From IMG/VR virus record IMGVR_UViG_3300028833_000083, positions 62,114 through 126,113 of that record: a stretch of DNA of 64,000 nt; one strand, 5' to 3'. The DNA comes from a virus (lineage: Duplodnaviria; Caudoviricetes). Position 1 is the first letter of the stretch. The number at the start of each line of letters is the position of its first letter. The notes beneath the pieces were generated by a model. The model did no database searches, was not told the DNA's origin, and worked only from the letters and a program-made list of their open reading frames with translations. Position numbers and translations under genes: made by a program. Shown here in pieces: positions 10,338 to 50,656 of this stretch.

Positions 10338-10537
10338 TAAGAAAAGTTTTTCACAGATACAACAAGAGAAATATGATAACCTGATGGAAGGCGTCAGCAT
10401 ATGGGCGGCGTTTTATCGTGCGAATCCTCAACGCTTTGCTGTTGACTTTTTAAATATACAATTAGGATTATTTCAAAAAATTTTGTTGTATGTAATGAAT
10501 ATGTGTACGGTCTTCAATTGGATCGCGAGCCGAGGCT
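10330..10537 (+). CDS. terL: Terminase large subunit, exon 1
   Basis: Ends ...WIASRG-T; splicing to 11827 restores Walker A ASRGLGKT. Confidence 0.85.
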
Positions 10538-11826
10538 TAACATGTTATTAGAGGATTTGGCGGATAGCCACCGCCCATCCTCTCTTTTATTTACAAGGAG
10601 AGGATATGGAAATATTAACTCTAGAAGACAAAGACTTTATTCGTAACCATTTAAAAGATTATACGAGTAAAGAATTTGCAGAACACTTTAACAATACACA
10701 TAATACAAACGTTTATAAAAGACAAATTATTAGCGAGTGGATATATAGTAATAATTTATTACCACGTCAAAAAAGAAGATCCTTGTTTTCTGATGAGGAT
10801 GTGCGTTTTATAAAAGATAATTATATGTCCATGTCATACAAAGAAATCTCTCAAGCGTTAGGTTATACTGAAAAACAAATAAGAAGTAAAGCAGAACATT
10901 TAGGATTGACTAAAACCAGAAGGTTTAACGATAGGTATTTTGAAAAGATAGATACCTCGTTAAAGGCATATTTTCTTGGCTTTATTTTTGCGGATGGATG
11001 GATAACACATACTCCATCTGGATCTTATGAGTTTGGAATGGAACTTAAAAGTGAAGACAGATATATACTTGATAGGATTAATGATGAACTTGGTGGATTG
11101 CACGAAGTAAAAAATCTTCCACCAGAAGATCGTATTATAAATAATCAAGTTATTCATAAAACAGAGAGTTGCGTTTTAAGAGTATATTCTAAACCGCTAG
11201 TAGAAGATTTAATTGCTAATAATATTGATTTCAATAAGACTCTTTCAGATAAATTTCCAATAGTGGATGATAATTATTTCTTTGATTATTTAAGAGGTTA
11301 TTTTGATGGAGATGGTTGTATTTATAATAATCGCGGTAGATTAAGAATACAAATAGTTTGTGCCATTAAAAGTACTCTTAATTATTTAAAAGATAAATTA
11401 AATCAATATGGAATACGAACAGAAATATATAAAGAAAGAGAACGTAAATATGTATTAGTGTGTGCAAATGTTGAAGATGTAAAAATGTTAATAAATAAGA
11501 TGTATTATTCATCTGATGTGTTTTGTTTGTCTCGCAAAAAAGATAAAGCAAAACCTCTAATAAATATCGGGTCTGTAACGTAGAAATACGTTATGAATAG
11601 TGGGCAAATACGGAGAACGCTGAGATGCCAACTCCGTGGTAACTTGTAGTGGTAAAAAACACAAGTACCGTAACGCATAGGTAGTGAACCTAATTATTAG
11701 AATATAATCTACCCAAGAGTGTCCGCCACCTTAACAGATAATGCTGAAGGTGAAAATGTATGCTGAACTTATGAGAATAACAATCATAAGATCCACAAGA
11801 TAAAAAGCTTGTGGGATAACAAATTG
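10538..11826 (+). mobile_element. Group I intron (IA-like) with the endonuclease ORF inserted in the P1 loop
   Basis: 5' splice after U of AGGCU, which pairs with GGUCU (~11569-11574); P2 with GAAA loop; P3 GUGGGCA/UGUCCGC; P4 ACGGAG/CUCCGU; P7 GCAUA/UAUGC; P8 CACCUU/AAGGUG; P9 stems; terminal G at 11826; splicing keeps the frame. Confidence 0.88.
10606..11583 (+). CDS. Intron-encoded double-motif LAGLIDADG homing endonuclease with N-terminal HTH-like repeats
   Basis: YFLGFIFADGW and YLRGYFDGDGC motifs; own RBS AAGGAGAGG. Confidence 0.9.
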   Translation: MEILTLEDKDFIRNHLKDYTSKEFAEHFNNTHNTNVYKRQIISEWIYSNNLLPRQKRRSLFSDEDVRFIKDNYMSMSYKEISQALGYTEKQIRSKAEHLGLTKTRRFNDRYFEKIDTSLKAYFLGFIFADGWITHTPSGSYEFGMELKSEDRYILDRINDELGGLHEVKNLPPEDRIINNQVIHKTESCVLRVYSKPLVEDLIANNIDFNKTLSDKFPIVDDNYFFDYLRGYFDGDGCIYNNRGRLRIQIVCAIKSTLNYLKDKLNQYGIRTEIYKERERKYVLVCANVEDVKMLINKMYYSSDVFCLSRKKDKAKPLINIGSVT

Positions 11827-13388
11827 TAGGTAAGACTTATCTGATTGCTCTCTACTGTGTAATTAGATGTATCCTTTACCCCGCTACTAAAGTATGTGTG
11901 GCGTCTGGAGTTAAGTCTCAAGCTGTCGAGATAATCGGCAAAATAGAGACCGACTTTATGAAGCTTCATGATTGGGGTAGTAGTAATCTCGCAAACGAAA
12001 TTGAAGACATAAGTACGTCAATAAATAATCCACACGTTGATTTTAAAAACGGATCTTGGATTAAGGTTGTTACCGCAAGTGATAATGCGCGAAGTAATCG
12101 TGCGACTATAGTTATTATAGACGAGTCAAGAATGGTAAAGAAAAAAATCGTAGATACAGTTCTTAGGAAATTCTTGACATCACTTAGGAAACCACCCTAT
12201 ATGAATCTTCCTGAGTATAAGAACAATCCTAAATATCAGGAAAGAAATATAGAAATGTATATGACATCTGCGTACTATAAGAGTTCGTGGATATTTGACA
12301 AATGCAAGTCTGATGCCGCTCTTATGTTGGACGACAACAAGAGATATTTTTGTTGTGGCTTACCATATGAAGTTGGTATCGAGGAAGGCATCTTCTCAAA
12401 GGAAGCCGTTGAGGATGAAATGTCCGAGGCAGACTTTGATCCTATATCATTTAGAATGGAGCGTGAAGCACTGTTCTATGGTGAAGCTGAAGATGCGTTT
12501 TATAAGTTTGATGAAGTATCAAGTTGTCGAGTAATCAAGAATGCATTTTTGCCTCTTGAGTTTTATGAAAAGCGTGGTATTAATGTGCCAGATCTTGCTG
12601 AAGGTGAACGCCGCATATTATCTGTGGACGTTGCACTTATGGCAAGTAAGGCAACCAACAACGATGCTACAGCGATGGAAATTAATATTGCTACGCCAAG
12701 TAATAATGGTATGGCATCGCATATTGTTTATGTGGAGACTTTTGAGGGTAAAACAACTGATGAAGTGGCTATTATAATTATGCGATATTTTAATCATTAT
12801 AAGTGTACCGATCTAGTACTAGATACGAATGGATTGGGTCTGGGCGTCTATGATTTCATTACTCGTCCGCAGTTTGATGCAGAAACTGGTGAGACATATG
12901 AGGCCATGTGTAGCTGTAATGATGCGGCCATGGCTGAACGTTGTCGTGAACCCAATGCAAATAAATGCGTGTGGACTATTAAGGCGTATGCACAAGAGAA
13001 CTCCGAAATGGCAACTGCGTTACGTGCGGGCATACAGACTGGTAATCTCTCATTATTGATTAGCGAATATGATGCTGAACAAGTTGTAAAGAAGGTATCT
13101 GGTTATGCGTCTATGACCGCAGAAGAAAAAGTTAAACTGCTTATGCCGTATGCACAGACTACCGCACTTGTTAATGAAATGGTTAACCTTGAAGGCAAGA
13201 TCATAGATAATAAGGTTAAGCTCAAGGAACATGCTGGAATGCGTAAGGATAGGTTCTCCAGTTTGGAGTACAACTATTATGTGGCGCAGCAGATCGGTCT
13301 TGAAATGAGACGTAGCGATTCGCAAACTAAAAATTCAATACTTGATATACTTTCTTCTTCCATGAGGAAGAGTTCTATTTTCAAATAA
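11827..13388 (+). CDS. terL: Terminase large subunit, exon 2 (spliced product 589 aa)
   Basis: Begins TA-GGT-AAG-ACT (L-G-K-T); Walker B IVIIDES; nuclease motifs SVDVA and KDRFSSL. Confidence 0.88.
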
Positions 13389-13398
13389 CCTCCGTTTA

Positions 13399-13428
13399 GC
13401 CACCATAGGTGTCAAAGCCTATGGTGGT
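13399..13428 (+). repeat. Conserved-loop hairpin, copy 1 (loop TGTCAAAG)
   Basis: GCCACCATAGG-TGTCAAAG-CCTATGGTGGT, 10 nt after the terL stop. Confidence 0.8.
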
Positions 13429-13516
13429 ATTTAAGGTGGTATAAAACCATAATACAATACGGTTTTGTAGTTTACTACTTTTAGTATTGTAAATAAAAAT
13501 AAAAGGACTAAATGTT

Positions 13517-13684
13517 ATGACTAAGGTTGAATTAAAAGATATTGTTGATGTGTTAGCACAAATGTATGACGACGTAATTGAATTGTACGATGGTGAAACA
13601 ATATATTCATTATCATTAGACGTTGCAATAAAAACACTTAGAGGTGCTGAGATTCGACCATATTATCTAGGCAATATACTGTGA
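13517..13684 (+). CDS. Small hypothetical protein (55 aa)
   Basis: AAGGA RBS; MTKVELKDIV...YYLGNIL; shorter than anything in the ORF track. Confidence 0.45.
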   Translation: MTKVELKDIVDVLAQMYDDVIELYDGETIYSLSLDVAIKTLRGAEIRPYYLGNIL

Positions 13685-13717
13685 TACATTTATTCTTTTT
13701 TAGATATGGAGTAAGTA

Positions 13718-14095
13718 ATGGCATATATATACAAGAATCCCAATCCGCATAAAAGATTAGTTGGAGACTGTGTTATACGTGGCATTTCAATACTTACTGA
13801 TAAATCGTGGCGTAATGTGTATATACAATTATTAGGCCAAGGTTATGAGATGTATGATATGCCATCGTCAAATGAAGTTTGGGGTGCATACTTAAAATCC
13901 ATTGGATATGTTAAGCGTATCATTTCTAACACATGTCCAGACTGTTATACAATAAAAGATTTTTGTCATGATAATCCTCGCGGCAAATATTTGCTGGCCA
14001 CTGGCTCTCACGTGGTGGCGGTAATAGACGGAGATTATTACGACACTTGGGACTCAGGTAATGAGATTCCCATCTACTACTTTTCAAAAGAGTAG
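13718..14095 (+). CDS. Papain-fold (C39-like) cysteine peptidase candidate
   Basis: NPNP...GDCVIR (C18), GSHVVAV (H98), YYDTWD (D109). Confidence 0.6.
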   Translation: MAYIYKNPNPHKRLVGDCVIRGISILTDKSWRNVYIQLLGQGYEMYDMPSSNEVWGAYLKSIGYVKRIISNTCPDCYTIKDFCHDNPRGKYLLATGSHVVAVIDGDYYDTWDSGNEIPIYYFSKE

Positions 14096-14163
14096 TACTG
14101 ATCATGATTTGTTATTGCGCTTAAGCGCTGTAATAAAAATATGATTTAAAGGAGGGTTCGCCT

Positions 14164-14586
14164 ATGAATCCATACGAACAAGCGCCGTATCCTAGATATG
14201 GCAATCCGTATCAATATGTACCACAGCAGGGCTATGTTGTGTCACAACAGCCTATACCGCAACCAGATTCAAATATAATTTGGGTACAAGGTACAAGTGG
14301 TGGTAATGCCTATCCATTACAAAGCGGAAAGAGTGCAGTATTATTTGATACAGAAGCAAAAAGATTTTTTATTAAAACTGTAGATGCAAGTGGAATGCCA
14401 CAAGCACTACGCGTGTTTTACTACACAGAAGAGACAGAAACGAATGAAAAAGAAACTCCAGCCATTGATACCTCTATGTTTATTACAAGAGAGGAATTTA
14501 CCGAAGCAATTAATTCTTTGAAAGATAGACAATATAACAACAATCAGAGAAAGGACGGTAATAAGAATGGCAAATCCACTGTTTAA
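14164..14586 (+). CDS. Hypothetical protein (Cys-rich operon gene 2)
   Basis: Q/P/Y-rich N-terminus; WVQG...FFIKTVDASGMP core; RBS AAGGAGG. Confidence 0.7.
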   Translation: MNPYEQAPYPRYGNPYQYVPQQGYVVSQQPIPQPDSNIIWVQGTSGGNAYPLQSGKSAVLFDTEAKRFFIKTVDASGMPQALRVFYYTEETETNEKETPAIDTSMFITREEFTEAINSLKDRQYNNNQRKDGNKNGKSTV

Positions 14587-14797
14587 TGAGCAAATGCAGA
14601 ACAGTCTTAACGCACAGTTTAATTCTTTTAGGACAAATCCTATAGGGTTTCTCGCACAGAGAAATATTAATATCCCTCAGGAATATGCCAATGATCCGCA
14701 TGGTGCAATTCAATACATGCTGAACAATAATAAGTTGTCGCAAGACAGATTAAACTGGGCTATACAAATTGCTCAACGAATGGGAATCCGACTTTGA
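14567..14797 (+). CDS. Small helical protein (operon gene 3)
   Basis: MANPLFN...; overlaps the previous gene. Confidence 0.65.
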   Translation: MANPLFNEQMQNSLNAQFNSFRTNPIGFLAQRNINIPQEYANDPHGAIQYMLNNNKLSQDRLNWAIQIAQRMGIRL

Positions 14798-14903
14798 TAT
14801 CTAATCACGCGCGCGCAAAGATGTGATTTGATATAGATAACCGACACTTCAAATGGAAGTGCCGCTCACCTAACAAAAGTTATTGGATGAAAGGAGTTTA
14901 ATT

Positions 14904-15626
14904 ATGGCAATTACTGATTCAGATGGAATGGTTATGCCCGTAGCACCCACTGGAGGTTCTGGCTTCGGAGGCTTTGGTGGTGGAGATGGTTGGCTGTTTA
15001 TTCTTTTCCTTATTGCTTTTATGGGCAATGGATGGGGTAACGGCGGATTCGGAGGAAATTCAGATTTTCCTTGGATCATGAATGGTCAGAATAGCGGCTT
15101 CAGAGACGTTATGAACAACGACAACATCAACTCTATCAGAGGAGACGTTGCCGCACTTTCCAGCCAGCTTTATTCCAGTCAGATGGCTGATATGGAGAGA
15201 AGTTTTGCAGCTCAGACCGCAAACACTCAGGGACTGAATGCGATCCAGTCACAGCTTGCTCAGTGCTGCTGCGATAATAGAGCAGCTACTGCCGATGTGA
15301 AATATACCATCGCAAATGAAGCTTGTGCTACTAGAGCTGCTAATGCTGCAAACACTCAGTCTATCCTCGACAAACTTTGCCAGCTCGAACTGGACGGCTA
15401 CAAGAGAGAGAATGACAACTTAAGAAGTCAGCTCAATATGGCTGCTCTTCGCGAATCTCAGACCGCACAAAATGCGTTCATTCAGCAAGGACTCGCTGAC
15501 GAAGTTGATCAGCTCTATAATAGACTTTCCAATTGCCCTGTGCCCAGCACTCCAGTATATGGCAGAACCCCCATATTCACATGCGGTAACGGATGTGGAT
15601 GTAATGGTGGCACCTCTTTAATTTAA
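14904..15626 (+). CDS. Gly-flanked hydrophobic segment + coiled-coil + CCC/Cys-rich protein (operon gene 4)
   Basis: RBS AAGGAG before ATG 14904; GGGDGWLFILFLIAFMGNGWG; QLAQCCCDNR; C-terminal CGNGCGC. Confidence 0.75.
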   Translation: MAITDSDGMVMPVAPTGGSGFGGFGGGDGWLFILFLIAFMGNGWGNGGFGGNSDFPWIMNGQNSGFRDVMNNDNINSIRGDVAALSSQLYSSQMADMERSFAAQTANTQGLNAIQSQLAQCCCDNRAATADVKYTIANEACATRAANAANTQSILDKLCQLELDGYKRENDNLRSQLNMAALRESQTAQNAFIQQGLADEVDQLYNRLSNCPVPSTPVYGRTPIFTCGNGCGCNGGTSLI

Positions 15627-15638
15627 GGAGGTGTAACT

Positions 15639-16115
15639 ATGGCTGAGTTTACGAAGAACGAATATCAGGTCGTTCAGCCCAATCAGCCCGTTACTCTTAA
15701 TACGAGTATCGGCTGCAATAAGGGGTATGTATATCACAGGAATGGTAGTGGTATTGTAACTCTCCGTGGCATTTCTAACAGTCCTTGTGGATTTGCTAGA
15801 TATCAGGTTACCTTTAACGGCAACATAGCAGTTCCCACTGGAGCTACCGTTGGGCCAATAAGTGTAAGCCTTGCACTGGACGGAGAGCCCATTCTCACTA
15901 GTAGGGCAATTGTTACACCCGCAGCAGTAGCTGCAGATCCTCCTACTCAGAATAATTTCTTTAATGTTACGTCAACTGCAATAATTGATGTTCCTAAATG
16001 TTGCTGCATGAATGTTAGCGTTGAGAATACTTCTGAGAGTGCAACACCCGCAACGGTGCCCGCACCCGCAATACTTGTTCAGAATGCCAATCTTACTGTT
16101 ACACGAATTGCTTAA
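15639..16115 (+). CDS. BclA-CTD/C1q-TNF-like beta-sandwich protein candidate (operon gene 5)
   Basis: Alternating beta pattern, ARYQVTFNGNI, CCC motif, C-terminal NANLTVTRIA. Confidence 0.55.
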   Translation: MAEFTKNEYQVVQPNQPVTLNTSIGCNKGYVYHRNGSGIVTLRGISNSPCGFARYQVTFNGNIAVPTGATVGPISVSLALDGEPILTSRAIVTPAAVAADPPTQNNFFNVTSTAIIDVPKCCCMNVSVENTSESATPATVPAPAILVQNANLTVTRIA

Positions 16116-16133
16116 GAGAGGAGGAAAGTTATT

Positions 16134-16448
16134 ATGATGGATGAATTATATGAACTTTGTAAAAATCTCAAGAAAGAGATCAGAAATTTAAACACAAAGA
16201 ATGACATCTCTCCTACTGAGCTTGAACGTGCATACAAAGCCGTAGATATTATCAAGGACATTAAGACCATCGAGGCTATGGAAGGTTATGGCGAAGATGA
16301 TGGTTACAGTGGTCGTAGATATTATTACGATGATGATATGAGGTATTCTCGTAGAAGCATGAATCGTAACGGCTATAGCGGCAACGAAGACAAGGAAGAG
16401 ATGATGCGTGAGCTTGAAGAGCTTAAACGCAAAATTGAAAGCATGTAA
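16134..16448 (+). CDS. Helical protein with a YS(R/G)-rich linker (operon gene 6)
   Basis: RBS GGAGG; charged helices flanking GYSGRRYYYDDDMRYSRR. Confidence 0.7.
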   Translation: MMDELYELCKNLKKEIRNLNTKNDISPTELERAYKAVDIIKDIKTIEAMEGYGEDDGYSGRRYYYDDDMRYSRRSMNRNGYSGNEDKEEMMRELEELKRKIESM

Positions 16449-16472
16449 TAATTAGGTGGGGATCCCGCCTTG

Positions 16473-16502
16473 GTCGTCGTGGGTGTCAAAGCTCACGACG
16501 GC
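16473..16502 (+). repeat. Conserved-loop hairpin, copy 2 (loop TGTCAAAG)
   Basis: GTCGTCGTGGG-TGTCAAAG-CTCACGACGGC with G-U pairs. Confidence 0.8.
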
Positions 16503-16544
16503 GTTTCTTGTAAATAATTTTCTAACTAAGGAGGACTAAATAAT

Positions 16545-17345
16545 ATGGATATAAGTTCATATTTGCTTTCGAGAAAATTTACGAAAGACAGTATTATTGG
16601 ACTCGGAGCGGTTAAAGGTGCTCCTTGTACTATAAAGAGTACTGAACATCGTGATGGAGTAACGTATGTAACGTTTGAGTGGACGACTGAAGATGGTAGC
16701 ACAAAGAGACAAGCAACCATTAATATTATCGACGGTGCTTCTGTACGTGTATGGGAATCTGGTACTCATTATAAATTTGGCGATATTGTTTTGTATGAGT
16801 CTGCATTTTATAAATGTACTTCTGCAAACAGTGATGCTGAGTTCGATGAAAACAATTGGGAAGATGTCGCATCTTTTAGTGGCGACTATGGTGTTGTGGA
16901 TAGATCCAATCTTCTCCCTGAGTTTACTGCTAATGATAGAAAGGTATATTATTCAATTGAGGATAAGACATTCTATCTTTGGAATGGCGAGCGCTGGGTA
17001 GCTCAGATTGTTGGCATTGATAATGCTGAAGATTATAGTACGGATGAAAAAGTAATTGGCTCATGGACAGACGGAAAGACCTTGTTCCAAAAGACAATTA
17101 ACTTTGGTAAGCTTCCCGCCAATGGTGATAAGTCTATTAGTTACGGAGTAAATAACGCATCCATTAAAAAGATATTTGGGTATGCAACCAACGGAACTGA
17201 TACTATAAATATACCTCACCCCGCAACATCATTATCAGAAGTTGTATCTGTTACTACAAATGCATCAGCAAAACTTTTAACGGCAACTACTGGTATGGAT
17301 AGAAGCAATTATTCTGCTTATATAACCATACAATATACAAAGTAA
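16545..17345 (+). CDS. Modular virion protein with a CBM5/12-like module
   Basis: N-terminus paralogous to 17458; WESGTHYKFGDIVLYESAFYKC; C-terminal YSTDEKVIGSWTDGK domain as in 6290. Confidence 0.65.
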   Translation: MDISSYLLSRKFTKDSIIGLGAVKGAPCTIKSTEHRDGVTYVTFEWTTEDGSTKRQATINIIDGASVRVWESGTHYKFGDIVLYESAFYKCTSANSDAEFDENNWEDVASFSGDYGVVDRSNLLPEFTANDRKVYYSIEDKTFYLWNGERWVAQIVGIDNAEDYSTDEKVIGSWTDGKTLFQKTINFGKLPANGDKSISYGVNNASIKKIFGYATNGTDTINIPHPATSLSEVVSVTTNASAKLLTATTGMDRSNYSAYITIQYTK

Positions 17346-17348
17346 ATC

Positions 17349-17380
17349 TTCGCGACTCGGTGTTAAAGCTGAGTCGCGGG
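17349..17380 (+). repeat. Conserved-loop hairpin, copy 3 (loop TGTTAAAG)
   Basis: TTCGCGACTCGG-TGTTAAAG-CTGAGTCGCGGG, 3 nt after a stop. Confidence 0.8.
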
Positions 17381-17457
17381 AAATGTTATCCTTGTTATCT
17401 TTTGATAGTAGGGATAATATTTTCTATGCATAAAAAAAATAGAAAGGAGATCAACAC

Positions 17458-18486
17458 ATGGATATCGTCTCGTATATACTTTCGAGGAAATATACTCAAA
17501 AGACCGTAGAAGGTCTTGGTGCTATTAAGGGTTCGCCGTGTACCGTTGAGTCTATTGTAGATATAACTGGTGGAAAAAGGATAACCCTTGGATGGGAAGG
17601 AACTTCGGGAACAAAGCAGACTCAGAGTTTTGATATCATGGATGGTGTAGATGGTGTATCTATAACATCGGCAGTGATTAATGAGCAAGGGCATCTTATC
17701 ATTCATTATTCAGACGGCACCAGTAGTGATGCGGGCGTAATTGTGCTTGATGCTCCAGTTAAATCTGTAAACGGTAAAACTGGCGATGTAGTTCTTACCA
17801 CATCTGATCTTGCTAATGATAGTGGTTTTACAACACAGACATATGTAGATACTGCGTTGGCGAGCAAGGCTGACACTTCTGATCTTAATGATTATGTCAA
17901 GAAGGAAAACGACAAGTCTCTTATGTCTACCGCCGAACATAATAAATTAGACGGAATAGAAAGTGGTGCGCAAAAAAATGTGCAAAGCGACTGGGATCAG
18001 AATGATAGTAGTAAGGATGATTTCATAAAAAATAAGCCAACTATACCCCCAACAATAATAGTAGATAGTGAATTATCAAGAACCTCTACTAATCCAGTGG
18101 AGAATAAAGTTGTTAAGGCTGCTATTGATACAAAGGCTAACAGTTCCGATTTAGACAATTATGTGCAGAAAGAAACTGGTAAGGGATTATCTACAGAAGA
18201 TTACACAACTGCCGAAAAAACTAAACTCGGCGGAGTTGAGACTGGCGCAGAAGTTAATACAATTGTTAGTGTTACAGTTGATGGTGTTCCAGCTGTACCA
18301 GATGCCAATAGAAATATTAATATAGCAACTGGCGGAGGAAGTGGCGGAACAAGTAACTACAATGCCTTGACTCATAAGCCTCAGGTAAATGGCGTAGAAT
18401 TGATGGGCAATAAGTCGCTTGAAGACTTGGGAATAGAAGGATTAACTACTGAACAATTAAATAGTCTTTTGGCTGCTTTTGATTAA
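17458..18486 (+). CDS. Fibre-like protein
   Basis: VKSVNGKTGDVVL, NVQSDW..D...FIKNKP, GKGLSTEDYT, NYNALTHKPQVNGVEL fibre motifs. Confidence 0.7.
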   Translation: MDIVSYILSRKYTQKTVEGLGAIKGSPCTVESIVDITGGKRITLGWEGTSGTKQTQSFDIMDGVDGVSITSAVINEQGHLIIHYSDGTSSDAGVIVLDAPVKSVNGKTGDVVLTTSDLANDSGFTTQTYVDTALASKADTSDLNDYVKKENDKSLMSTAEHNKLDGIESGAQKNVQSDWDQNDSSKDDFIKNKPTIPPTIIVDSELSRTSTNPVENKVVKAAIDTKANSSDLDNYVQKETGKGLSTEDYTTAEKTKLGGVETGAEVNTIVSVTVDGVPAVPDANRNINIATGGGSGGTSNYNALTHKPQVNGVELMGNKSLEDLGIEGLTTEQLNSLLAAFD

Positions 18487-18497
18487 GGAGATAGATT

Positions 18498-19184
18498 ATG
18501 GGCGTAAAAAATTTTGTCGATTATGATAACGCGCAAGCGATAACTAATAAAATTGCACAGAAAATTAATGCACTTGGCGGTGCTTATATTTTTAAGGGAT
18601 CAATACCTTTTGCAAGTTTACCAGCTACTATCACATCTGATATGGCTGGATATACTTATAATATTACTAACGACTTCACAACTGACGCTCGTTTCGTAGA
18701 GGGTGCTGGTTTTGATTATAAGGCTGGAACTAATGTATCTGTTGCTGACTTATCTACCTATGTCGAGGTTACTCCCGTAGGATCAGAAAGCCCCGCAACT
18801 GAGGGTTGGTATGAGCTGGTTAATAATAAGTATATCCCCAGTACCGATGCTGAAGTAGTATCTGGTAAAACTTATTACGCAAGGACTTCCAGTGTTAAGT
18901 TTGATATTGTCGGAAGTTTCTTTGATATGGATGCAATAAACGATAGGATAGACGGTGCCGAAGGAATGGTTGCTCCTGAGTTTGATCAAACTCAAGCATA
19001 TGCAATTGGCGCAATTGTAACTCATGAAGATGGATTATACAAATTCAAAGCTGCTCACGTTGCAAACACAGCTTGGAATTCTTCTGAAGTTGATGAGACT
19101 GCTATTACCGATCTTATTTCATCCGCTGAACCTGATTCACTTACCAACGAACAAGTTGCGGCACTCATTGCAATTCTCAACTAA
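18498..19184 (+). CDS. Fibre/decoration protein with a CBM5/12-like module
   Basis: YIFKGS..., FDQTQAYAIGAIVTHEDGLYKF; C-terminal LTNEQVAAL. Confidence 0.65.
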   Translation: MGVKNFVDYDNAQAITNKIAQKINALGGAYIFKGSIPFASLPATITSDMAGYTYNITNDFTTDARFVEGAGFDYKAGTNVSVADLSTYVEVTPVGSESPATEGWYELVNNKYIPSTDAEVVSGKTYYARTSSVKFDIVGSFFDMDAINDRIDGAEGMVAPEFDQTQAYAIGAIVTHEDGLYKFKAAHVANTAWNSSEVDETAITDLISSAEPDSLTNEQVAALIAILN

Positions 19185-19194
19185 TGAATAATTG

Positions 19195-19223
19195 TAAGGG
19201 GCTAGGTTAATCTTAGCCCCTTA
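19195..19223 (+). terminator. Terminator-like hairpin
   Basis: TAAGGGGCTAGG-ttaat-CTTAGCCCCTTA after the stop at 19184. Confidence 0.65.
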
Positions 19224-19299
19224 TTAAGAATGGGAATTATTATTAGAGTTATCCGCAGATAGTTGTAATAATAATTTTTATTCTAGAAAGGAGGAAATT

Positions 19300-19473
19300 A
19301 TGGGAGTTATAAAATATGGCGACGTCGAATATAGTGGCGGCGGCGAAGGAGATACTGTAACTTGGACACAGACCCAAGCAACTGGCACTAAGATCGCGGA
19401 GATCACTATTAACGGAGTAACGCAAAATGTATATATTCCTGAATTACCTCAGGCAGAAGGTGAGAGTGTATAA
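19300..19473 (+). CDS. Small fibre-associated protein (57 aa)
   Basis: AAGGAGG RBS; MGVIKYGDVEYSGGG...; TAATG coupling to the next gene; paralog of 8227. Confidence 0.7.
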   Translation: MGVIKYGDVEYSGGGEGDTVTWTQTQATGTKIAEITINGVTQNVYIPELPQAEGESV

Positions 19474-21347
19474 TGGCAAAATGGCAAATAAATAGCGAAA
19501 CACTTGTAGACATAGCTGATGCTGTTCGTGCAAAACGAGGAACTTCTGCTCCTATACAAGTTAGCGATCTAGCAGATGAAATTGCACTTATCAATGGTGA
19601 TGGTTTACTTAGAGATAGACTTATCATTCCCGATAAATATAATACTGGATGTCATGGTCAGTTAAAAAAATTTGATCCAAGTACCGATACAAGTGGTATA
19701 GGTTGGAGAACTGATTTAAACGATGTTATTGGCATTGATTTTAATAAGCCTGCATCGACCCAAAATCTTACCGACAATCAAATTATTATATTTCAGGATT
19801 ATGATTTTACCACTTATAAAAGTTTTTCTTTTATGAATATGAACGCTTACACCACAGATAAAAGTTATTATAAAGATAATCTTACTTTTGTATTTATTAA
19901 TTGTCTATTTATAACGGCATATCAAAATGGTGCAATTCCTCAAGATACAAAAATTAATTTTATATTTTGTAATTGTACCGCCAACAAAATAGGCATTAGT
20001 GGTTTTGTGGATAGGTGTTTACTTGGTAATGTAACATTTTTCCAGTCAATACGTGAGGATTATGTGCCCGATGGAGATCCGCTTAATCCGTCCAGTCCTT
20101 TCGTAATTAAAAATAGTTATATAATGGACGTAGAAGCTCATACGGCTGAAACTGGAGCAGGACATATAGATGGTCTTCAAATTAGTACTGGAGGAGGACA
20201 TGACCAATTAGTATATAATTGTCGTTTTGAATGTTTTGATATGCCTTATGATCATTCCCAAGGAGGCTGGTCATATAGTATGTTTTGGGAAGGCACTGTA
20301 ACAGATAGCACAATTATGTATTGTATTTTTCATGGTGGTGGTTACTATGGTACATCTTTGAAAAAAGCCGACAATCAAATCCTACGTGATAATTTAATTT
20401 CTGGAGAATATCATATGGATGCAAATGGTTCTGAATCTCAATGGAATAGAGCCTGCTATCCCAATGAGAACAACTGGCAAATGAGTGACGGATGGGCGGA
20501 TTATATCAGCACACTTCTCGTATCCTCGGTTTGGGTCGAAGATAACATGATTAAAATCTGTTATTCCAATGATATGCACTCAACAAGAACTATGAGAATA
20601 GTTGATAATAATGGACAAGTAACTACCGTATCAGTTCCTGCTTGCCCTATAAGGGTTACCGCAGAAACAGAAGGTATCACGCAGTGGTCTGATTTACCAT
20701 TTGATCGTGTTGTGGAGATAAGTGCAACTGGTGTCGATAGTATTAATATATATGATGGCAATACTCTTGTAAGAACATTTACAGTAAATACTGCAGGCAG
20801 TATTAGTAACACGGCAGAAAAAAATATTACACAAAATGGAACCTATATAGCAAGTGCTGAAGGTCTTGATGGTTATTCAAAAGTCAATGTTTCAATTGAT
20901 GCACCTACGGGCACTCTTGAAATTGGTCAAAATGGCACATTTGATGTTGCACAATATGCCAGTGCATTAGTTAATGTTACTAGTGGTGGATATTCATATT
21001 TGACCATTCAAGATATCACACCCGCAGAAGATTTAACAGTACTTGAAATAAATATTGATACTACTAAAACTCTTAATGCGTTGCTTGTGTATGATACAAA
21101 TCGTACAACACTTCAAGCATATACATTCAATGATTTTGTAATAATGAGTGCGCCAACTAATAGTAGTAGTCCTTGGCAAGCATGCTGCGGTTCAAGTAGT
21201 TACAATGGAACATATGGGTTTACTATTAATAATATACCAACATGGAGCGTTGATACTACACTTGGAGTAATTAGCCTCGGCCCCAAGAATAAATACTATT
21301 GGAGGGCTGGTAGAACTTACAGAGTGATGCTTATATATTCAGAATAA
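19473..21347 (+). CDS. Fibre/spike with a right-handed beta-helix (polysaccharide lyase-like) domain
   Basis: N-terminal LVDIADAVRAK fibre-anchor motif; stacked F.NC/IKNS/YNC repeats; GHIDGLQ; ITQNGTY repeats. Confidence 0.6.
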   Translation: MAKWQINSETLVDIADAVRAKRGTSAPIQVSDLADEIALINGDGLLRDRLIIPDKYNTGCHGQLKKFDPSTDTSGIGWRTDLNDVIGIDFNKPASTQNLTDNQIIIFQDYDFTTYKSFSFMNMNAYTTDKSYYKDNLTFVFINCLFITAYQNGAIPQDTKINFIFCNCTANKIGISGFVDRCLLGNVTFFQSIREDYVPDGDPLNPSSPFVIKNSYIMDVEAHTAETGAGHIDGLQISTGGGHDQLVYNCRFECFDMPYDHSQGGWSYSMFWEGTVTDSTIMYCIFHGGGYYGTSLKKADNQILRDNLISGEYHMDANGSESQWNRACYPNENNWQMSDGWADYISTLLVSSVWVEDNMIKICYSNDMHSTRTMRIVDNNGQVTTVSVPACPIRVTAETEGITQWSDLPFDRVVEISATGVDSINIYDGNTLVRTFTVNTAGSISNTAEKNITQNGTYIASAEGLDGYSKVNVSIDAPTGTLEIGQNGTFDVAQYASALVNVTSGGYSYLTIQDITPAEDLTVLEINIDTTKTLNALLVYDTNRTTLQAYTFNDFVIMSAPTNSSSPWQACCGSSSYNGTYGFTINNIPTWSVDTTLGVISLGPKNKYYWRAGRTYRVMLIYSE

Positions 21348-21396
21348 TTTTATGCAAGGGGAGAGAGTAAAATTTCTCCTCTTGTTTACGTATAAT

Positions 21397-21441
21397 GAAA
21401 GGAGGGTTGCCCAACATGGCGACAAAAAAGCAGCGGGCAAC
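21397..21441 (+). repeat. Degenerate copy of the portal RBS/start region (26565-26610), opening a 28-codon ORF 21416..21502
   Basis: GAAAGGAGG(G)TTGCC..ATGGCGAC.AAAA..AAGCAGCGGGCAAC is present at both sites. Confidence 0.75.
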
Positions 21442-21582
21442 ACCAGCAGAAACTGTTAACGCGTTAATTCAGAACCTTAGATTCCAACTTACAAATAATT
21501 AAAATTGTGGAGAGAGGCATAGTCCTCTCTCCAGATATTGTCTCCCTCGTCTGGCAGGGAAAAATAATTAAGGAGGGAGAAA

Positions 21583-22893
21583 ATGAATTTTTCAAATTAT
21601 CAAAATCTTCGTGATTTATTTACGGCGATTAAGGTCAAGTTTACGAACAGACCTGAAACGATAGAAATTTCTCAAGCGGATTATAATGCATTAACTCCTG
21701 CACAGAAAACTGACAAGACAAAAGTTTACTATATATATGATGCAGAGAGCGGCGGTAATACGCTTGCTGGATTATCTGATACAAGTATCACTAATCCGTC
21801 AAATAAACAAGTGCTTAGTTATAATAGCACTACATCAAAATGGGAAAATACAGCACCTCCAGCAAGTGGTGGGGTTACAGATGTTGAAGTAAACGGAACA
21901 TCTGTAGTTGATGCACAAGGCGTTGCGAATCTTACAATAACAATGCCAAGTGTTGAAAATCTAAACAATGTAGATGTTACAGATATTACAAATGGTCAGG
22001 TGCTTAAATATAATTCTACCACTCAAAAATGGGAAAACGCCAATGAGAGTGGCGGAGGCGGTGGAAGCTCTACACTTGGAGGACTTGATGATGTTACTAT
22101 TTCGTCTCCTGCAGCTGGTAATATATTGGCTTATGACGGAGAAAAATGGATTAACTATAATGCGTCAAGCAATGGTATGTTTATAGCAGCATATGGTAAA
22201 TCAACCTATGCTGAAATACTTGCAGCCTATAACTCTCATATGATTGTGTACTGTAGAGCAAGTTCTGGTAGCAACCCTGCAAGTGGTGCACAAACAAGAA
22301 TGGCGTTTATGGCATACGTTAATAACGAGACAACGCCAACCGAATTTGAGTTTCAGTATTACAGATCTGTTTCTACGCATAGCGATTCACAGCAGGGCGA
22401 TCAAGTATTCGTATATAAGATAAATAGTACTGGCAACTGGTCAGTCACAACTCGTAACACATTTACCAAAATTAAAGCTGGTACTAATATGACCAGTAGT
22501 TATAGTGATGGTACATTAACATTGAATAGCACTGCAAGTGGAGGAACAACCGTCGTTGCTAATCCCTCAGGAACTGCTAGTGCCGATTTGAATAAATTAC
22601 AAGTTGGTAGCTCTATATATGGAATACCGCAGCCAACAGCTAATCCTTCTGGCACGGCTTCGGCTGATTTAACCAAACTGCAAATAGGAAGCACCATATA
22701 TTCCATATCAGGAGCAACGGCAAATCCTTCTGGTACAGCAACTGATAATTTAACAAAAATTCAAATAGGCAATACTATATATGCAATTCCAAGTGCGAAT
22801 CTTGGAGATGTAGATAATTTTGTTTTAGTAAATGACCTTCCGTCTGATGCGGCAAGCCATCCTAGAACAATGTATTTAATTACAGAGGAATGA
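21583..22893 (+). CDS. Modular fibre-like protein
   Basis: ISQADYNAL motif; three L..L.DV/S..T...L.Y...KW.N modules; three ANPSGTA..L.K.Q.G..IY repeats. Confidence 0.7.
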   Translation: MNFSNYQNLRDLFTAIKVKFTNRPETIEISQADYNALTPAQKTDKTKVYYIYDAESGGNTLAGLSDTSITNPSNKQVLSYNSTTSKWENTAPPASGGVTDVEVNGTSVVDAQGVANLTITMPSVENLNNVDVTDITNGQVLKYNSTTQKWENANESGGGGGSSTLGGLDDVTISSPAAGNILAYDGEKWINYNASSNGMFIAAYGKSTYAEILAAYNSHMIVYCRASSGSNPASGAQTRMAFMAYVNNETTPTEFEFQYYRSVSTHSDSQQGDQVFVYKINSTGNWSVTTRNTFTKIKAGTNMTSSYSDGTLTLNSTASGGTTVVANPSGTASADLNKLQVGSSIYGIPQPTANPSGTASADLTKLQIGSTIYSISGATANPSGTATDNLTKIQIGNTIYAIPSANLGDVDNFVLVNDLPSDAASHPRTMYLITEE

Positions 22894-22903
22894 GAGGTAT
22901 AAT

Positions 22904-25900: not shown

Positions 25901-26206
25901 CTTTATGATCTCGTATTGGACAAAACCACAAAACAATGGACGACAAAAACATGGTACGGGCTTGATGAAGGTACTTATTTTGTCGGTGGAGGATACATAT
26001 GGACAGATCTTAACGGTATTACTTATTATAGTGCTGGAGAAGTCGACAAGCAATATGTGCTAGACCCCACAACAAGTAGATGGAATAAGAAAAAATGGAT
26101 TAATCAAAGTCCCTCTTATGATTTGATCTATGGAGGAAATTATATGGCCGTTACCGAAGACGGGCCGTATTCATGTTATGGTAATAAGTATAAATTTACT
26201 ACGTAA
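22904..26206 (+). CDS. Trp-rich repeat protein (beta-propeller/solenoid-like adhesin)
   Basis: About two dozen ~38-42-aa repeats WTDG.N.YYS....QYVL.K.T.TW..KTW.G. Confidence 0.75.
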   Translation: MSMYAGTNYVPKIFIGNKKVNEMYVGNDKKFHFVDTLKRCTSNQKPQIRTAFVTKFQQGYEFEFWTNGTYIYYSEKSSNKNYVYNPNKNMWETVSTSGLSNYCGSYVWTDGTNTYYSYNGNNKVLSSANLTNVSWSTKTWSGLSNISGSHVWTDGANIYYSSATNQYVLNKSTNTWSTKTWKGLTNFYGAGVWQDFDGNIYYSNDNDQYVLNKETGTWSAKTWTGLTSFKARFIWDDGEDIYCSGSLWNVGQYKLNKTTGNWDSITWNGYNNIDADDIWKSGNNIYFTSNIATYLYDKQNASWNQVPMFVTANLPFDLQSSYVWKDADDNTYITHDRVSYKLDKTTNTWEQITWNGMTPSDGQYAWTDGIDTYYSEDGGQYILNKATNTWTRKNWIFPSEYSENYSYIDGNEIWIDGTDIYYSRGQGSYSSPCYTFKLNKATDTWNRVDMDWAGVGIFGFGAWTDGTNTYFSGSDGYNNDCQYVFNKTTRKWDKKTWNGYSYIVGGDVWTDGDNIYYSHGSAQYVLNKNTSTWTTKTWKGYTSFYGNEVWKSPNGNIYLKSDYVLSKSTSTWQPITWKVLSLMDDLTVSCIWTDGANTYYSYPVSGNGQYVLDSVTRKWNEITWGGHNDLYGEYIWTDTRGNIYYSANSTHYVLDQSTNTWNNKTWNGLTNFDGSWAWNDGVNVYLESVDGDKQYILDQTTDTWNLNISYPRLYYIWYSNIWTDGVNHYYSSGSNQYIFNSQNNRWDSKTWNGLTNFDGMYVWTDGTNIYYSYNNNQYVLNKNTSTWTKVTWNINITYGNSVWTDGNNVYYNFYNGTASAFMLDKTNNLWVSIDFYGSPTTMSSFDTVQVWNDSERSYIKNTHELFDEQNHIWRAVNIKVPVYINNPVGGLSNYFNNHGIWHDGNDTYWSGLLDQDFYHSYDMLRTYKWNKNLYAWELVDIGAPILGDNIFYIDDDMYCGSKYKYDKTLKKWIYFPMYGVNGYNYISAPAIWKNEGNTYLYDLVLDKTTKQWTTKTWYGLDEGTYFVGGGYIWTDLNGITYYSAGEVDKQYVLDPTTSRWNKKKWINQSPSYDLIYGGNYMAVTEDGPYSCYGNKYKFTT

Positions 26207-26226
26207 AATTTTAGGTAGTGTGGTAC

Positions 26227-26328
26227 TGCATGGTGGCGGAATAGGTAGACGCTAGAGATCGATTTCTAGAATCGAGAGGTAGGCACAACGCCAGTGTCTA
26301 TGCAAGGTGCGAATCCTTGCCCATGCAT
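26227..26328 (+). tRNA. Atypical tRNA-like gene, apparent anticodon CUA (amber)
   Basis: TGCATGG/CCATGCA acceptor; Leu-type D-arm; TCGAT-TT[CTA]GA-ATCGA; long variable arm; GCAAGG-TGCGAAT-CCTTGC T-arm; spacing is non-canonical. Confidence 0.55.
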
Positions 26329-26361
26329 TTATAATTTTTAAAAATTAAAGGAGGCACGATT

Positions 26362-26559: not shown

Positions 26560-26580
26560 TGAAAGAAAGGAGGTTGCCTA

Positions 26581-50650: not shown

Positions 50651-50656
50651 TATTAG

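What the first reader, a model, noticed from the sequence alone, without database searches (positions are those of the whole stretch)
13718..16448. Six-gene Cys-rich operon: protease, membrane coiled-coil CCC protein and beta-sandwich; candidate undescribed system
Seen: a compact cassette bracketed by hairpin copies 1 and 2. It encodes a Cys18/His98/Asp109 papain-like enzyme, a Q/P/Y-rich protein, a small helical protein, a 240-aa protein (Gly-flanked hydrophobic segment, heptad repeats, CCC, Cys-rich tail), a CCC-containing beta-sandwich and a Tyr/Arg-linker helical protein. None resembles a standard head or tail gene. From memory, similar clusters recur in Clostridia phages as hypothetical proteins (not verified here). 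Hypothesis A: a disulfide-cross-linked spore-surface or occlusion-type structure, by analogy with Cys-rich exosporium proteins and the BclA C-terminal domain. Hypothesis B: a protease-activated trimeric membrane-inserting machine with fusion-peptide-like, coiled-coil and receptor-head parts.
Basis: partly seen in the sequence, partly recalled or inferred. Interest (0 to 1): 0.8.

Follow-up and report, generated by a model that had tools for sequence, protein, structure and literature searches.

The report
Mobile six-gene cysteine-rich phage cassette
A 3-kb block of six to seven genes of unknown function, absent from a 99%-identical sister phage, recurs in the same order in hundreds of gut and rumen phages. 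It probably builds a stalk-and-head protein assembly, and no described system matches it.

Summary
Window 13718-16448 carries six co-oriented genes with good ribosome sites.

- **P1:** a small enzyme candidate with invariant Asp-Cys, His and Asp.
- **P2:** a Tyr/Pro/Gln-rich protein.
- **P3:** a small Gln/Asn-rich helical protein.
- **P4:** 240 aa, real start 14904. It has a Gly-rich hydrophobic helix, a 143-residue helix, nine Cys and a Pro/Cys tail.
- **P5:** a standalone TNF/C1q jelly-roll, closest to F-BclA and BclA C-terminal domains.
- **P6:** a helical protein with an Arg/Tyr/Ser/Gly/Asp low-complexity loop.

P4 and P5 are adjacent in all 82 loci first examined, and a P6-type gene follows P5 in 142 of 146 loci. 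The order also holds in the cultured Butyrivibrio phage Ceridwen. A relative with 99% identical terminase lacks exactly window 13462-16442, so the block is mobile and dispensable. It is not a core virion or lysis part.

Function is not established. My best reading (0.35) is an accessory self-assembling complex of a membrane-held coiled-coil stalk (P4) and a C1q-like head (P5), with low-complexity partners and a maturation enzyme. This resembles spore-surface assembly kits in principle. A strict spore link is weakened by the host data. No Pfam, NCBIfam or PADLOC family fits, PHROGs give only unknown-function families, and no paper was found.

This scan's first readers noted the same cassette in at least 14 other genomes; those notes are unchecked.

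The parts
13399..13428 (+). Hairpin copy 1, just after the terminase stop. 12-bp stem; loop/top shared with copies at 16473, 17349 and 50656. It flanks the cassette but is not part of the mobile unit.
   Evidence: Present unchanged in cassette-less relative L155.
13462..16442 (+). The mobile unit: a 2981-bp block absent from a relative whose terminase is 99% identical.
   Evidence: Alignment A6 of the window flanks with the L155 junction. Locus survey.
13517..13684 (+). P0: a 55-aa ORF inside the mobile unit. No relatives were found in other cassettes, so coding status is uncertain.
   Evidence: no tblastn match in 82 loci.
13718..14095 (+). P1: 125-aa candidate Cys-His-Asp hydrolase. Invariant NPNP, Asp17-Cys18, His98 and Asp109, plus a CPxC pair (Cys73, Cys76) specific to the cassette type.
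   Evidence: phrog_3754 E 2.9e-27. Alignments A3 and A5. No Pfam or PDB sequence match. ESM Atlas leads to DUF261 and Peptidase_C39 only.
14164..14586 (+). P2: 140 aa. Tyr/Pro/Gln-rich N-terminus, a conserved ~55-residue segment, then a C-terminal helical/basic tail.
   Evidence: phrog_21718 E 1e-13. Alignment A4. No Pfam or PDB match.
14567..14797 (+). P3: 76-aa Asn/Gln-rich small helical protein. Its start overlaps the end of P2 by 20 nt.
   Evidence: phrog_22984 E 0.0013. Detected by tblastn in 30 of 82 loci. Composition.
14904..15626 (+). P4: 240 aa. Conserved N-terminal peptide; Gly-rich region with a Trp-flanked hydrophobic helix (aa 30-40, nt 14991-15023); one long helix (aa 68-210, nt 15105-15533) carrying Cys121-123, Cys141 and Cys159; Pro/Cys-rich tail (aa 211-240, nt 15534-15623).
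   Evidence: Alignment A1. AlphaFold2 model: helices 38-47 and 75-217 in the 247-aa numbering, rod pLDDT up to 96. phrog_16490. 838 clusters. Coordinates.
15639..16115 (+). P5: 158-aa standalone TNF/C1q-type jelly-roll with conserved Cys26, Cys50/51 and Cys122-123. No signal peptide.
   Evidence: AlphaFold2 pLDDT 91.4. VIA-align 9h38 Z 16.0, 1wck Z 14.5, 7r1m Z 13.4. Foldseek. phrog_20016 E 2e-40. Only 3 longer forms found.
16134..16448 (+). P6: 104 aa. N-terminal helical hairpin, Tyr/Arg/Ser/Gly/Asp low-complexity loop, C-terminal helix. This is a short version of a family with an RRDSMGRYS-type motif.
   Evidence: A gene of this type sits directly after P5 in 142 of 146 loci. Alignment A7. 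No Pfam or PDB match.
16473..16502 (+). Hairpin copy 2, upstream of the 266-aa fibre-like gene. It flanks the cassette.
   Evidence: Also present in L155.

Best explanation
The block is a self-contained, horizontally mobile accessory operon of phages of gut and rumen Clostridia. I propose it builds a cysteine-rich stalk-and-head protein assembly.

**Proposed mechanism**
- P4 forms a parallel, probably trimeric, roughly 20-nm coiled-coil stalk.
- A short Trp-flanked hydrophobic helix in a Gly-rich segment holds P4 in a membrane. The acidic N-tail is most likely outside and the rod in the cytoplasm, because no partner has a signal peptide.
- The Pro/Cys-rich end of P4 docks on trimers of P5, the C1q/TNF-fold protein.
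- The low-complexity proteins P2, P3 and P6 coat or link these units.
- P1, a Cys-His-Asp hydrolase with an extra CPxC pair, trims or cross-links a partner.
- The principle is that of the small Bacillus spore-surface kits: ExsFA/BxpB with BclA, and ExsL with L-BclA and Ena3A.

**Shown:** the gene set and its order; mobility and dispensability; the P5 fold; the long P4 helix and its Cys pattern; the P1 invariant residues.

**Inferred:** complex formation, oligomer state, membrane anchoring, timing of expression, and the biological purpose.
For: - **Conserved synteny despite divergence.** Order holds down to 35-50% identity across more than 200 loci, and in very different phages: a 126-kb SPbeta-like phage, 33-40-kb temperate siphoviruses and Butyrivibrio phage Ceridwen.
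- **Clean indel.** The 2981-bp block is missing from a relative with 99% identical terminase. A 92% relative carries a cassette at another site.
- **Own transcription signals.** Many loci have a terminator hairpin plus T-run and a -10-like box 30-60 nt upstream of P1. A small sigma-region-4/GerE-like HTH gene sits directly upstream in 76 of 124 loci.
- **P5 fold.** TNF/C1q jelly-roll, with standalone ExsFA/BxpB among the top matches.
- **P4 structure.** One 143-residue helix at high confidence, a hydrophobic helix, and nine Cys. Cys123, 141 and 159 are spaced by 18 residues, which places them on one helical face (my inference from the positions).
- **Low-complexity partners.** P2, P3 and P6 have compositions typical of matrix or linker proteins.
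- **Literature.** Disulfide-lashed jelly-roll and BclA-C kits of three genes are described in PMC11362473 and PMC12357932.
Against: - No direct evidence exists for any protein-protein contact.
- P4 tail type does not co-vary with any P5 column.
- The hydrophobic helix is short (11-16 residues) and has no flanking positive charges, so membrane anchoring and topology are uncertain.
- Hosts are strict anaerobes and the partners look cytoplasmic. Disulfide cross-linking is therefore doubtful, and the Cys may bind metal instead.
- P1 homologues also occur alone in early regions of Bacillus, Geobacillus and Lak phages. P1 may therefore act on a host target rather than on cassette proteins.
- The P1 fold was not modelled.
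Confidence: 0.35

Rival explanations
1. A membrane-fusion or membrane-insertion device. P1 would cleave the conserved N-terminal peptide of P4 and expose a Gly-rich hydrophobic peptide on a trimeric coiled coil, with P5 as the targeting head. It would work like a class I viral fusion protein or, at lysis, like a spanin.
For: - The P4 profile aligns marginally with influenza HA2 residues 3-91 (fusion peptide plus long helix, E 0.11-0.7) and with a SARS-CoV-2 HR1 mimic (E 0.0023; best stretch 0.026).
- In temperate siphoviruses the cassette follows endolysin and holin genes.
- The N-terminal peptide of P4 is conserved.
- P1 has a protease-like triad.
Against: - The E-values are marginal and typical of Gln/Asn-rich coiled coils.
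- No second heptad region or hairpin appears in the model, and there is no C-terminal anchor.
- No lipoprotein partner exists, because no lipobox occurs in any cassette protein (sequences).
- The cultured host is monoderm (own knowledge).
- This phage has an Amidase_2 gene about 70 kb away.
- The cassette is dispensable.
Confidence: 0.2
2. Host take-over, superinfection exclusion, or a defence or counter-defence module. A membrane-anchored complex made from a moron-like unit would block incoming phages or a host system.
For: - The unit has moron-like anatomy: its own terminator, promoter-like box and small HTH gene, often next to the integrase.
- It is dispensable.
- P1 homologues in Tsamsa-like Bacillus phages lie beside an Ocr-like anti-restriction gene and a protein kinase.
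Against: - No PADLOC family matches any of the seven proteins.
- Six or seven genes rich in low-complexity, Cys, Gly and Tyr sequence look structural rather than like sensors or effectors.
- The cassette is rare in bacterial genomes (2 of 401), so it is mostly not carried by resident prophages.
Confidence: 0.15
3. A virion-attached accessory fibre. P4 would be the shaft and P5 the receptor-binding or glycan-binding knob added to the particle.
For: - TNF-like knobs are common at the tips of phage fibres and tail needles: 1358 RBP, TM4 gp23, A-1(L) short fibre, Sf6 knob, PRD1 P5 and fibritin-like proteins.
- In this window the cassette lies next to fibre-like genes.
Against: - The 99% relative keeps the same fibre gene (98% identical) without the cassette.
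- The cassette occurs in unrelated phage types and at different places, often after the lysis genes behind a terminator.
- In the loci sampled, P5 is better conserved than its neighbours (mean 78% against 50% and 57%, a set biased by selection on P5). Receptor binders are usually the most variable parts.
- P5 is almost never fused to a shaft.
- A hydrophobic Gly-rich N-terminus is not a known virion adaptor.
Confidence: 0.1
4. One reading: lysogenic conversion of spore-forming hosts, with the proteins built into the spore coat, exosporium or an appendage.
For: - The parts list is reminiscent of spore-surface proteins: a BclA-C/ExsFA-like fold, Cys-, Tyr- and Gly-rich proteins, and a GerE-sized HTH gene upstream in many loci.
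- An unchecked note of this scan reports a CotH kinase next to the cassette in another phage.
Against: - The cultured host, Butyrivibrio fibrisolvens, does not sporulate (own knowledge; host).
- Four of five cassette-bearing MAGs gave no Spo0A_C match, with the caveat of incomplete genomes and uncertain binning.
- Only 2 of 401 family genomes carry P5.
- No CotH is present in this phage.
- This window is a 126-kb phage with its own RNA polymerase, and all genes in the window are co-oriented.
Confidence: 0.1
5. Not a system: unrelated small accessory genes that merely travel together.
For: - P1 also occurs alone in other phages.
- Alleles are mosaic. P5 identity ranges from 48% to 98% while P1 stays near 45-78%.
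Against: The same order of five to seven genes is kept in more than 200 loci at 35-50% identity and across phage types.
Confidence: 0.03

Closest known systems
Bacillus spore-surface assembly kits: ExsFA/BxpB with BclA or F-Anchor, and ExsL with L-BclA and Ena3A (PMC11362473, PMC12357932)
   Same: - Small gene clusters.
- A TNF/C1q jelly-roll (BclA-C, ExsFA) as head or anchor.
- Extended Cys- or Pro-rich peptides of a partner that dock on jelly-roll subunits.
- CC motifs used for covalent lashing.
- The P5 fold matches 9h38, 1wck and 7r1m with Z 13-16.
   Different: - No sequence relationship: no Pfam BclA_C or C1q hit.
- No collagen-like repeats, no DUF3992/Ena core, and no ExsY/CotY domain.
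- The stalk is an alpha-helical coiled coil with a hydrophobic helix.
- The genes are carried by phages, including one of a non-sporulating host.
- The hosts are strict anaerobes.
TNF-family ligands and C1q-type proteins (membrane-anchored or collagen stalk plus trimeric jelly-roll head)
   Same: A trimeric jelly-roll head and a stalk with an N-terminal membrane anchor (EDA-A1 Z 13.8, C1q Z about 13).
   Different: - Here the stalk (P4) and head (P5) are separate polypeptides. Only 3 longer forms were found among thousands.
- Neither has a signal or a positive-inside anchor.
- Sequence identity is 6-18%.
Class I viral fusion subunits (influenza HA2, coronavirus S2 HR1)
   Same: A Gly/aromatic-rich hydrophobic peptide followed by a long Gln/Asn/Ser-rich helix, with a protease gene in the same unit. 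There are marginal profile hits.
   Different: - No HR2 and no C-terminal transmembrane anchor.
- The E-values are not significant as evidence of homology.
- No enveloped particle is involved.
Spanins (Rz/Rz1) of phages of Gram-negative hosts
   Same: An N-terminal membrane helix, a coiled coil carrying Cys residues, a Pro-rich partner region, and a position beside holin and endolysin genes in many loci.
   Different: - No outer-membrane lipoprotein partner.
- The cultured host has no outer membrane (own knowledge).
- Four to five extra genes are present.
- In this phage the cassette lies far from the amidase gene.
Receptor-binding knobs of phage fibres (lactococcal phage 1358 RBP, TM4 gp23, Sf6 needle knob, PRD1 P5)
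   Same: TNF-like jelly-roll fold (Z 8.5-9.1).
   Different: - P5 is standalone and lacks a virion adaptor.
- In the loci sampled it is better conserved than its neighbours rather than hypervariable.
- The cassette is dispensable.

Membership tests
TNF/C1q-like jelly-roll superfamily (BclA_C PF18573, C1q PF00386) | Ten-strand jelly-roll fold superposable on solved members | tested here: met
   Model pLDDT 91.4. 9h38 Z 16.0, rmsd 1.9 over 124 residues. 1wck Z 14.5. C1q and TNF ligands Z 10-13. Foldseek probability 1.00.
TNF/C1q-like jelly-roll superfamily (BclA_C PF18573, C1q PF00386) | Sequence match to the Pfam models | tested here: not met
   No Pfam family for P5 at E up to 0.1. None for 31 homologues at E up to 1. 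The profile against PDB sequences gave nothing significant.
TNF/C1q-like jelly-roll superfamily (BclA_C PF18573, C1q PF00386) | Trimer formation | not testable with these tools
   Only single chains can be modelled here.
BclA-type collagen-like spore glycoproteins | Collagen-like GXX repeats N-terminal to the jelly-roll in one polypeptide | tested here: not met
   P5 is 158 aa and starts directly with the jelly-roll. Only 3 longer forms were found. The Gly-rich part of P4 is not a GXX repeat.
ExsFA/BxpB-type standalone jelly-roll anchors | Standalone ~150-170-aa TNF-like protein that binds an N-terminal peptide of a partner | tested here: inconclusive
   Size and fold fit (7r1m Z 13.4; 9h3d and 8d02 among the Foldseek top hits). 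Peptide binding cannot be tested. No covariation with the P4 tail type was seen.
Papain-like cysteine peptidases (clan CA, e.g. Peptidase_C39) | Invariant Cys, then His, then Asp/Asn in that order | tested here: met
   Asp17-Cys18, His98 and Asp109 are invariant in 47 cassette homologues. They are also invariant in Bacillus and Geobacillus phage homologues.
Papain-like cysteine peptidases (clan CA, e.g. Peptidase_C39) | Match to a curated peptidase model or a solved relative | tested here: not met
   No Pfam or NCBIfam hit. The profile against PDB gave nothing. ESM Atlas gave only leads: Peptidase_C39 in 15% of one cluster at 0.90, DUF261 at 0.92.
Papain-like cysteine peptidases (clan CA, e.g. 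Peptidase_C39) | Papain-like fold | not tested
Class I viral fusion proteins | Fusion peptide followed by HR1 | tested here: inconclusive
   Marginal profile hits to HA2 residues 3-91 and to HR1 (E 0.0023 to 0.7).
Class I viral fusion proteins | HR2 that packs back on HR1, and a C-terminal membrane anchor | tested here: not met
   The model is one continuous helix, 75-217. The C-terminus is a Pro/Cys-rich tail without a hydrophobic segment.
Spanins (Rz/Rz1) | Outer-membrane lipoprotein partner with a lipobox | tested here: not met
   None of the cassette proteins has a signal peptide followed by Cys (sequences).
Moron (autonomous accessory transcription unit in a phage) | Dispensable block with its own terminator and promoter signals, present or absent between close relatives | tested here: met
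   Clean indel against L155. Terminator plus -10-like box upstream of P1 in many loci. Flanking hairpins here. Promoter activity itself is not shown.
Known anti-phage defence systems (PADLOC) | Match of any component to a PADLOC model | tested here: not met
   No family for any of seven proteins at E up to 0.1.

The most novel reading that the evidence does not exclude
A tailed phage of a Gram-positive anaerobe carries a protease-primed, trimeric membrane-insertion machine built like a class I viral fusion protein. It would have a cleavable N-terminal peptide, a Gly-rich hydrophobic peptide, a long HR1-like coiled coil and a separate C1q/TNF-like targeting head. It would act on host or neighbouring cell membranes at release or entry.
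Probability: 0.12. Interest if true: 0.9.

Novelty: categorically new. Interest (0 to 1): 0.72.

Why it matters
**Scale.** The cassette is among the more abundant unexplained gene sets of gut and rumen phages.
- At least 7983 P5 clusters were found.
- 838 P4 clusters at 50% identity were found.
- 435 viral contigs carry it.
- Records come from cattle, sheep, yak, goat, buffalo and roe deer, and from human, lemur and rodent samples.

**What is missing.** No component has a named family, and no paper in the searched library mentions it.

**What it could reveal.** Its composition is unlike any described phage accessory module: a C1q-like head, a Cys-studded coiled coil, three low-complexity proteins and a small Cys-His-Asp enzyme. 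It moves as a unit between unrelated phages. Finding its function would likely reveal a new kind of phage-host or phage-environment interaction, such as a protein assembly, a membrane device or an exclusion system.

**A test system exists.** Phage Ceridwen on Butyrivibrio fibrisolvens DSM 3071 is cultured. A natural cassette-less twin of the window's phage is also on record. The question is therefore directly testable.

Tried and rejected
1. **DNA similarity.** A search of 13400-16600 against 50,697 phage records found no match.
2. **Family scans.** Pfam, NCBIfam and PADLOC scans of all proteins gave nothing above threshold. Pfam scans of the P1, P2, P5 and P6 homologue alignments also gave nothing.
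3. **Profiles against PDB sequences.** The P1, P2, P5 and P6 profiles gave nothing significant. The P4 profile gave only marginal coiled-coil-type hits.
4. **Fused forms.** Searches for longer forms of P5 and P1 found 3 and 6 proteins, none informative.
5. **Covariation.** No P5 column tracks the P4 C-terminal tail type.
6. **Cassette as this phage's lysis module.** Rejected. An Amidase_2 ORF lies about 70 kb away. The cassette coexists with endolysin and holin genes in siphoviruses. It is dispensable.
7. **CotH kinase link.** No CotH is present in this genome.
8. **Composition as a sign of recent import.** The insert has 40.4% GC against 36.8% for the rest of the window. Eight of 117 windows are as high, so this is not a clear outlier.
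9. **Hyper-conservation of P5.** This holds within the rumen clade, but that set was chosen by P5 similarity. In distant loci P5 falls to about 50% while P1 stays near 50%. I read this as mosaicism, not a special constraint.
10. **Fold search with the P4 model.** Not run, because a single long helix gives meaningless matches.
11. **Literature.** Searches on PHROG ids, BclA plus phage plus rumen, and TNF-like plus prophage terms found no paper. The Ceridwen paper lists these genes only as hypothetical.

Full report
**Setting.** The window is the second half (62114-126113) of a complete 126,113-bp virus record with direct terminal repeats. All long ORFs in the window are on the + strand. The finding lies between the second exon of the large terminase (11898-13388) and a run of fibre-like genes that precede the portal gene (26581-28104; phrog_2739, E 2.6e-71). 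Relatives carry YonB-, YonD- and YomU-type structural genes, so this is an SPbeta-like phage.

**The observation.** Six co-oriented ORFs with Shine-Dalgarno-like sites lie at the stated coordinates.
- **P1** (13718-14095, 125 aa) has invariant NPNP, Asp17-Cys18, His98 and Asp109 in 47 homologues. It also has a CPxC pair (Cys73, Cys76). That pair is missing from distant homologues in Bacillus and Geobacillus phages, which keep the triad.
- **P2** (14164-14586) has a Tyr/Pro/Gln-rich N-terminus, a conserved ~55-residue segment and a helical tail.
- **P3** (14567-14797) is a small Asn/Gln-rich protein.
- **P4** starts at ATG 14904, not at the upstream TTG, because 50 homologues align from that Met.
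  - It has a conserved N-terminal peptide.
  - It has a Gly-rich region with an 11-residue Trp-flanked hydrophobic helix.
  - It has a long helix and a Pro/Cys-rich tail, with nine Cys in all.
  - The AlphaFold2 model shows one helix of 143 residues, with pLDDT up to 96 in its second half. The ends are disordered.
- **P5** (15639-16115) folds with pLDDT 91.4. Only Cys122-123 of its 'CCC' are invariant.
- **P6** (16134-16448) is a helical protein with a Tyr/Arg/Ser/Gly/Asp loop.

The bracketing hairpins are real. They belong to a four-copy family with different 12-13-bp stems and a shared top, each just after a stop codon.

**Is it a unit?** Yes.
- P5 relatives were found on 435 viral contigs and 62 contigs of the genome collection.
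- The genome-collection contigs are nearly all MAGs from ruminant and other gut samples.
- In the first 82 loci, P4 and P5 are adjacent in all. P1 is found in 71, and is missing mostly where the contig is cut. P2 and P3 are detected in about half by BLAST.
- A P6-type gene follows P5 in 142 of 146 loci. BLAST misses it because it is low-complexity, but it carries a well-kept Arg-Arg-Asp-Ser-Met-Gly-Arg-Tyr-Ser type motif.
- The order is kept where P5 identity has dropped to 35-55%. It is also kept in the cultured Butyrivibrio phage Ceridwen (P1 43%, P2 36%, P3 32%, P4 49%, P5 65%).
- In fuller versions a seventh gene of about 110 aa follows P6 (58 of 124 loci).
- A ~68-aa sigma-region-4/GerE-like HTH gene of two different families sits directly upstream in 76 of 124 loci. 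The Pfam scores for it are below threshold.

**Mobility.**
- In 33-kb temperate siphoviruses the cassette follows the tail genes, endolysin and holin, and precedes the integrase.
- In other loci it is preceded by NlpC/P60-type endolysins and Dp-1-type holins.
- Many loci show a terminator hairpin with a T-run and a -10-like box 30-60 nt upstream of P1.
- The decisive result comes from relatives found through the terminase.
  - Locus L155 has terminase exons 99% identical and the next fibre gene 98% identical, but no cassette.
  - The three-way alignment shows that window 13462-16442 (2981 bp, including a 55-aa ORF) is a clean indel. Both hairpins stand side by side in L155.
  - L156 (92% terminase) has a cassette about 7 kb further downstream, with P1 78% and P6 69% identical but P5 only 48%.
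  - More distant relatives have the portal gene right after the terminase.
- The block is therefore dispensable, mobile and mosaic. This rules out a core virion or lysis role.
- This phage also has an Amidase_2 ORF about 70 kb away.

**What the parts are.**
- **P5** is a TNF/C1q jelly-roll.

| Structure | Z | Note |
|---|---|---|
| F-BclA C-terminal domain (9h38) | 16.0 | rmsd 1.9 over 124 residues |
| BclA C-terminal domain (1wck) | 14.5 | |
| EDA-A1 | 13.8 | |
| ExsFA (7r1m) | 13.4 | |
| C1q heads | about 13 | |
| Phage fibre knobs | 8.5-12 | |

  Foldseek agrees. BFVD holds similar standalone 130-143-aa proteins from gut phages. There is no sequence-level link: no Pfam hit for P5 or 31 homologues. 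P5 is almost never fused, with 3 longer forms found, and it has no signal peptide.
- **P1** has no family in Pfam or NCBIfam, and no PDB sequence relative. The ESM Atlas gave only leads to DUF261 and Peptidase_C39.
  - Its family also occurs alone in Tsamsa-like Bacillus phages, beside an Ocr-like gene and a kinase.
  - It also occurs alone in Geobacillus phage GBK2 and in Lak megaphages.
- **P2, P3, P6** and the seventh gene match nothing known.
- **PADLOC** finds nothing.
- **The P4 profile** gives marginal hits to influenza HA2 residues 3-91 and to coronavirus HR1. I read this as a likeness of architecture and composition, not descent.

**Most likely mechanism (0.35).** The cassette makes a stalk-and-head assembly.
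- P4 forms a coiled-coil stalk of about 20 nm, held in a membrane by its short hydrophobic helix.
- The spacing of Cys123, 141 and 159 by 18 residues puts them on one helical face. In a bundle they would form rings of thiols, for disulfides or metal.
- The Pro/Cys-rich tail, or the conserved N-terminal peptide, would dock on the P5 trimer. BclA and F-Anchor peptides dock on ExsFA in this way, and CC-bearing connectors lash Ena subunits and L-BclA (PMC12357932, PMC11362473).
- P2, P3 and P6 have the make-up of linker or matrix proteins.
- P1 would trim or cross-link a partner.
- None of these contacts is shown. Tail type does not co-vary with P5.
- Only P4 has a hydrophobic segment, its N-tail is acidic, and no partner has a signal peptide. 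I therefore expect the rod and its partners to sit on the cytoplasmic side, or to act only after lysis. In strictly anaerobic hosts the Cys may bind metal rather than form disulfides.

**Rivals.**
- **Membrane-insertion or fusion-like device (0.2).** It fits the HA2/HR1-like layout, the protease gene and the frequent place beside lysis genes. It lacks HR2, a second anchor and a lipoprotein partner.
- **Exclusion or defence-type role (0.15).** It fits the moron anatomy and the company P1 keeps in Bacillus phages. It does not fit the structural composition or the rarity in bacterial genomes (2 of 401 genomes of one host family).
- **Virion fibre (0.1).** It is contradicted by the cassette-less twin, the spread across phage types and the standalone P5, which in the sampled loci is better conserved than its neighbours.
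- **Strict spore-surface reading (0.1).** It is weakened by the Butyrivibrio host, the lack of Spo0A matches in four of five cassette-bearing MAGs (incomplete genomes) and the absence of CotH here.

**Novelty.** No paper in the searched library mentions these families or this gene set. The Ceridwen paper lists the genes as hypothetical. First readers of this scan flagged the same cassette in at least 14 other genomes, all unchecked. I rate it as an undescribed kind of phage accessory system. The caveat is that 'system' rests on conserved synteny and mobility, not on any demonstrated interaction or phenotype.

Noticed in passing
window 13399-13428, 16473-16502, 17349-17380, 50656-50685: A family of four intergenic hairpins, all on the + strand and just after stop codons. 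Stems of 12-13 bp differ in sequence, but the top is shared (ggtGTYAMAgc). They may be terminators or processing and stability signals for the phage's own transcription.
   Followed up: partly
window 10338-11897, compared with L155 to L161: The LAGLIDADG gene between the two terminase exons is missing from close relatives with 73-99% identical terminase. L155 still has about 540 nt between the two exon matches, against 1560 nt here. The endonuclease gene, and perhaps the intron, is therefore polymorphic.
   Followed up: partly
window 13389-26580: The stretch between terminase and portal is an insertion hot spot. Distant relatives (39-57% terminase identity) have the portal gene directly after the terminase. 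Here it holds the cassette and six fibre-like genes.
   Followed up: partly
L156:18428-21300: A relative with 92% identical terminase carries the cassette about 7 kb further downstream. P1 is 78% and P6 69% identical, but P5 only 48%. This points to independent acquisition or allele swapping within the cassette.
   Followed up: partly
L001:8518-9312 (Butyrivibrio phage Ceridwen, QHJ73770): A 265-aa ORF sits between P5 and the P6-type gene in Ceridwen only. Its Cys-rich, basic sequence looks like a homing-endonuclease-type insertion inside the cassette.
   Followed up: no
for example L012:7926-8261 and L021:3147-3470: A seventh conserved gene (~110 aa, helical, no Pfam or PHROG family) follows the P6-type gene in 58 of 124 cassettes. 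It is absent from this window.
   Followed up: partly
for example the ~100 nt upstream of P1 in L008, L006, L022, L036 and L079: A conserved mini-ORF of about 28 codons (starting Met-Gln/Lys-Asp-Ile-Ser, with an internal Cys-Ser) lies directly upstream of P1 in a subset of cassettes. It is not present here.
   Followed up: no
G000:C1:6665-6988 (- strand, outside the window): An Amidase_2 domain lies in a 535-aa open frame. It is the likely endolysin of this phage and is far from the cassette.
   Followed up: no
window 14842-14864 and 14108-14137: Short hairpins or palindromes lie inside the cassette, between P3 and P4 and between P1 and P2. They might tune relative expression.
   Followed up: no
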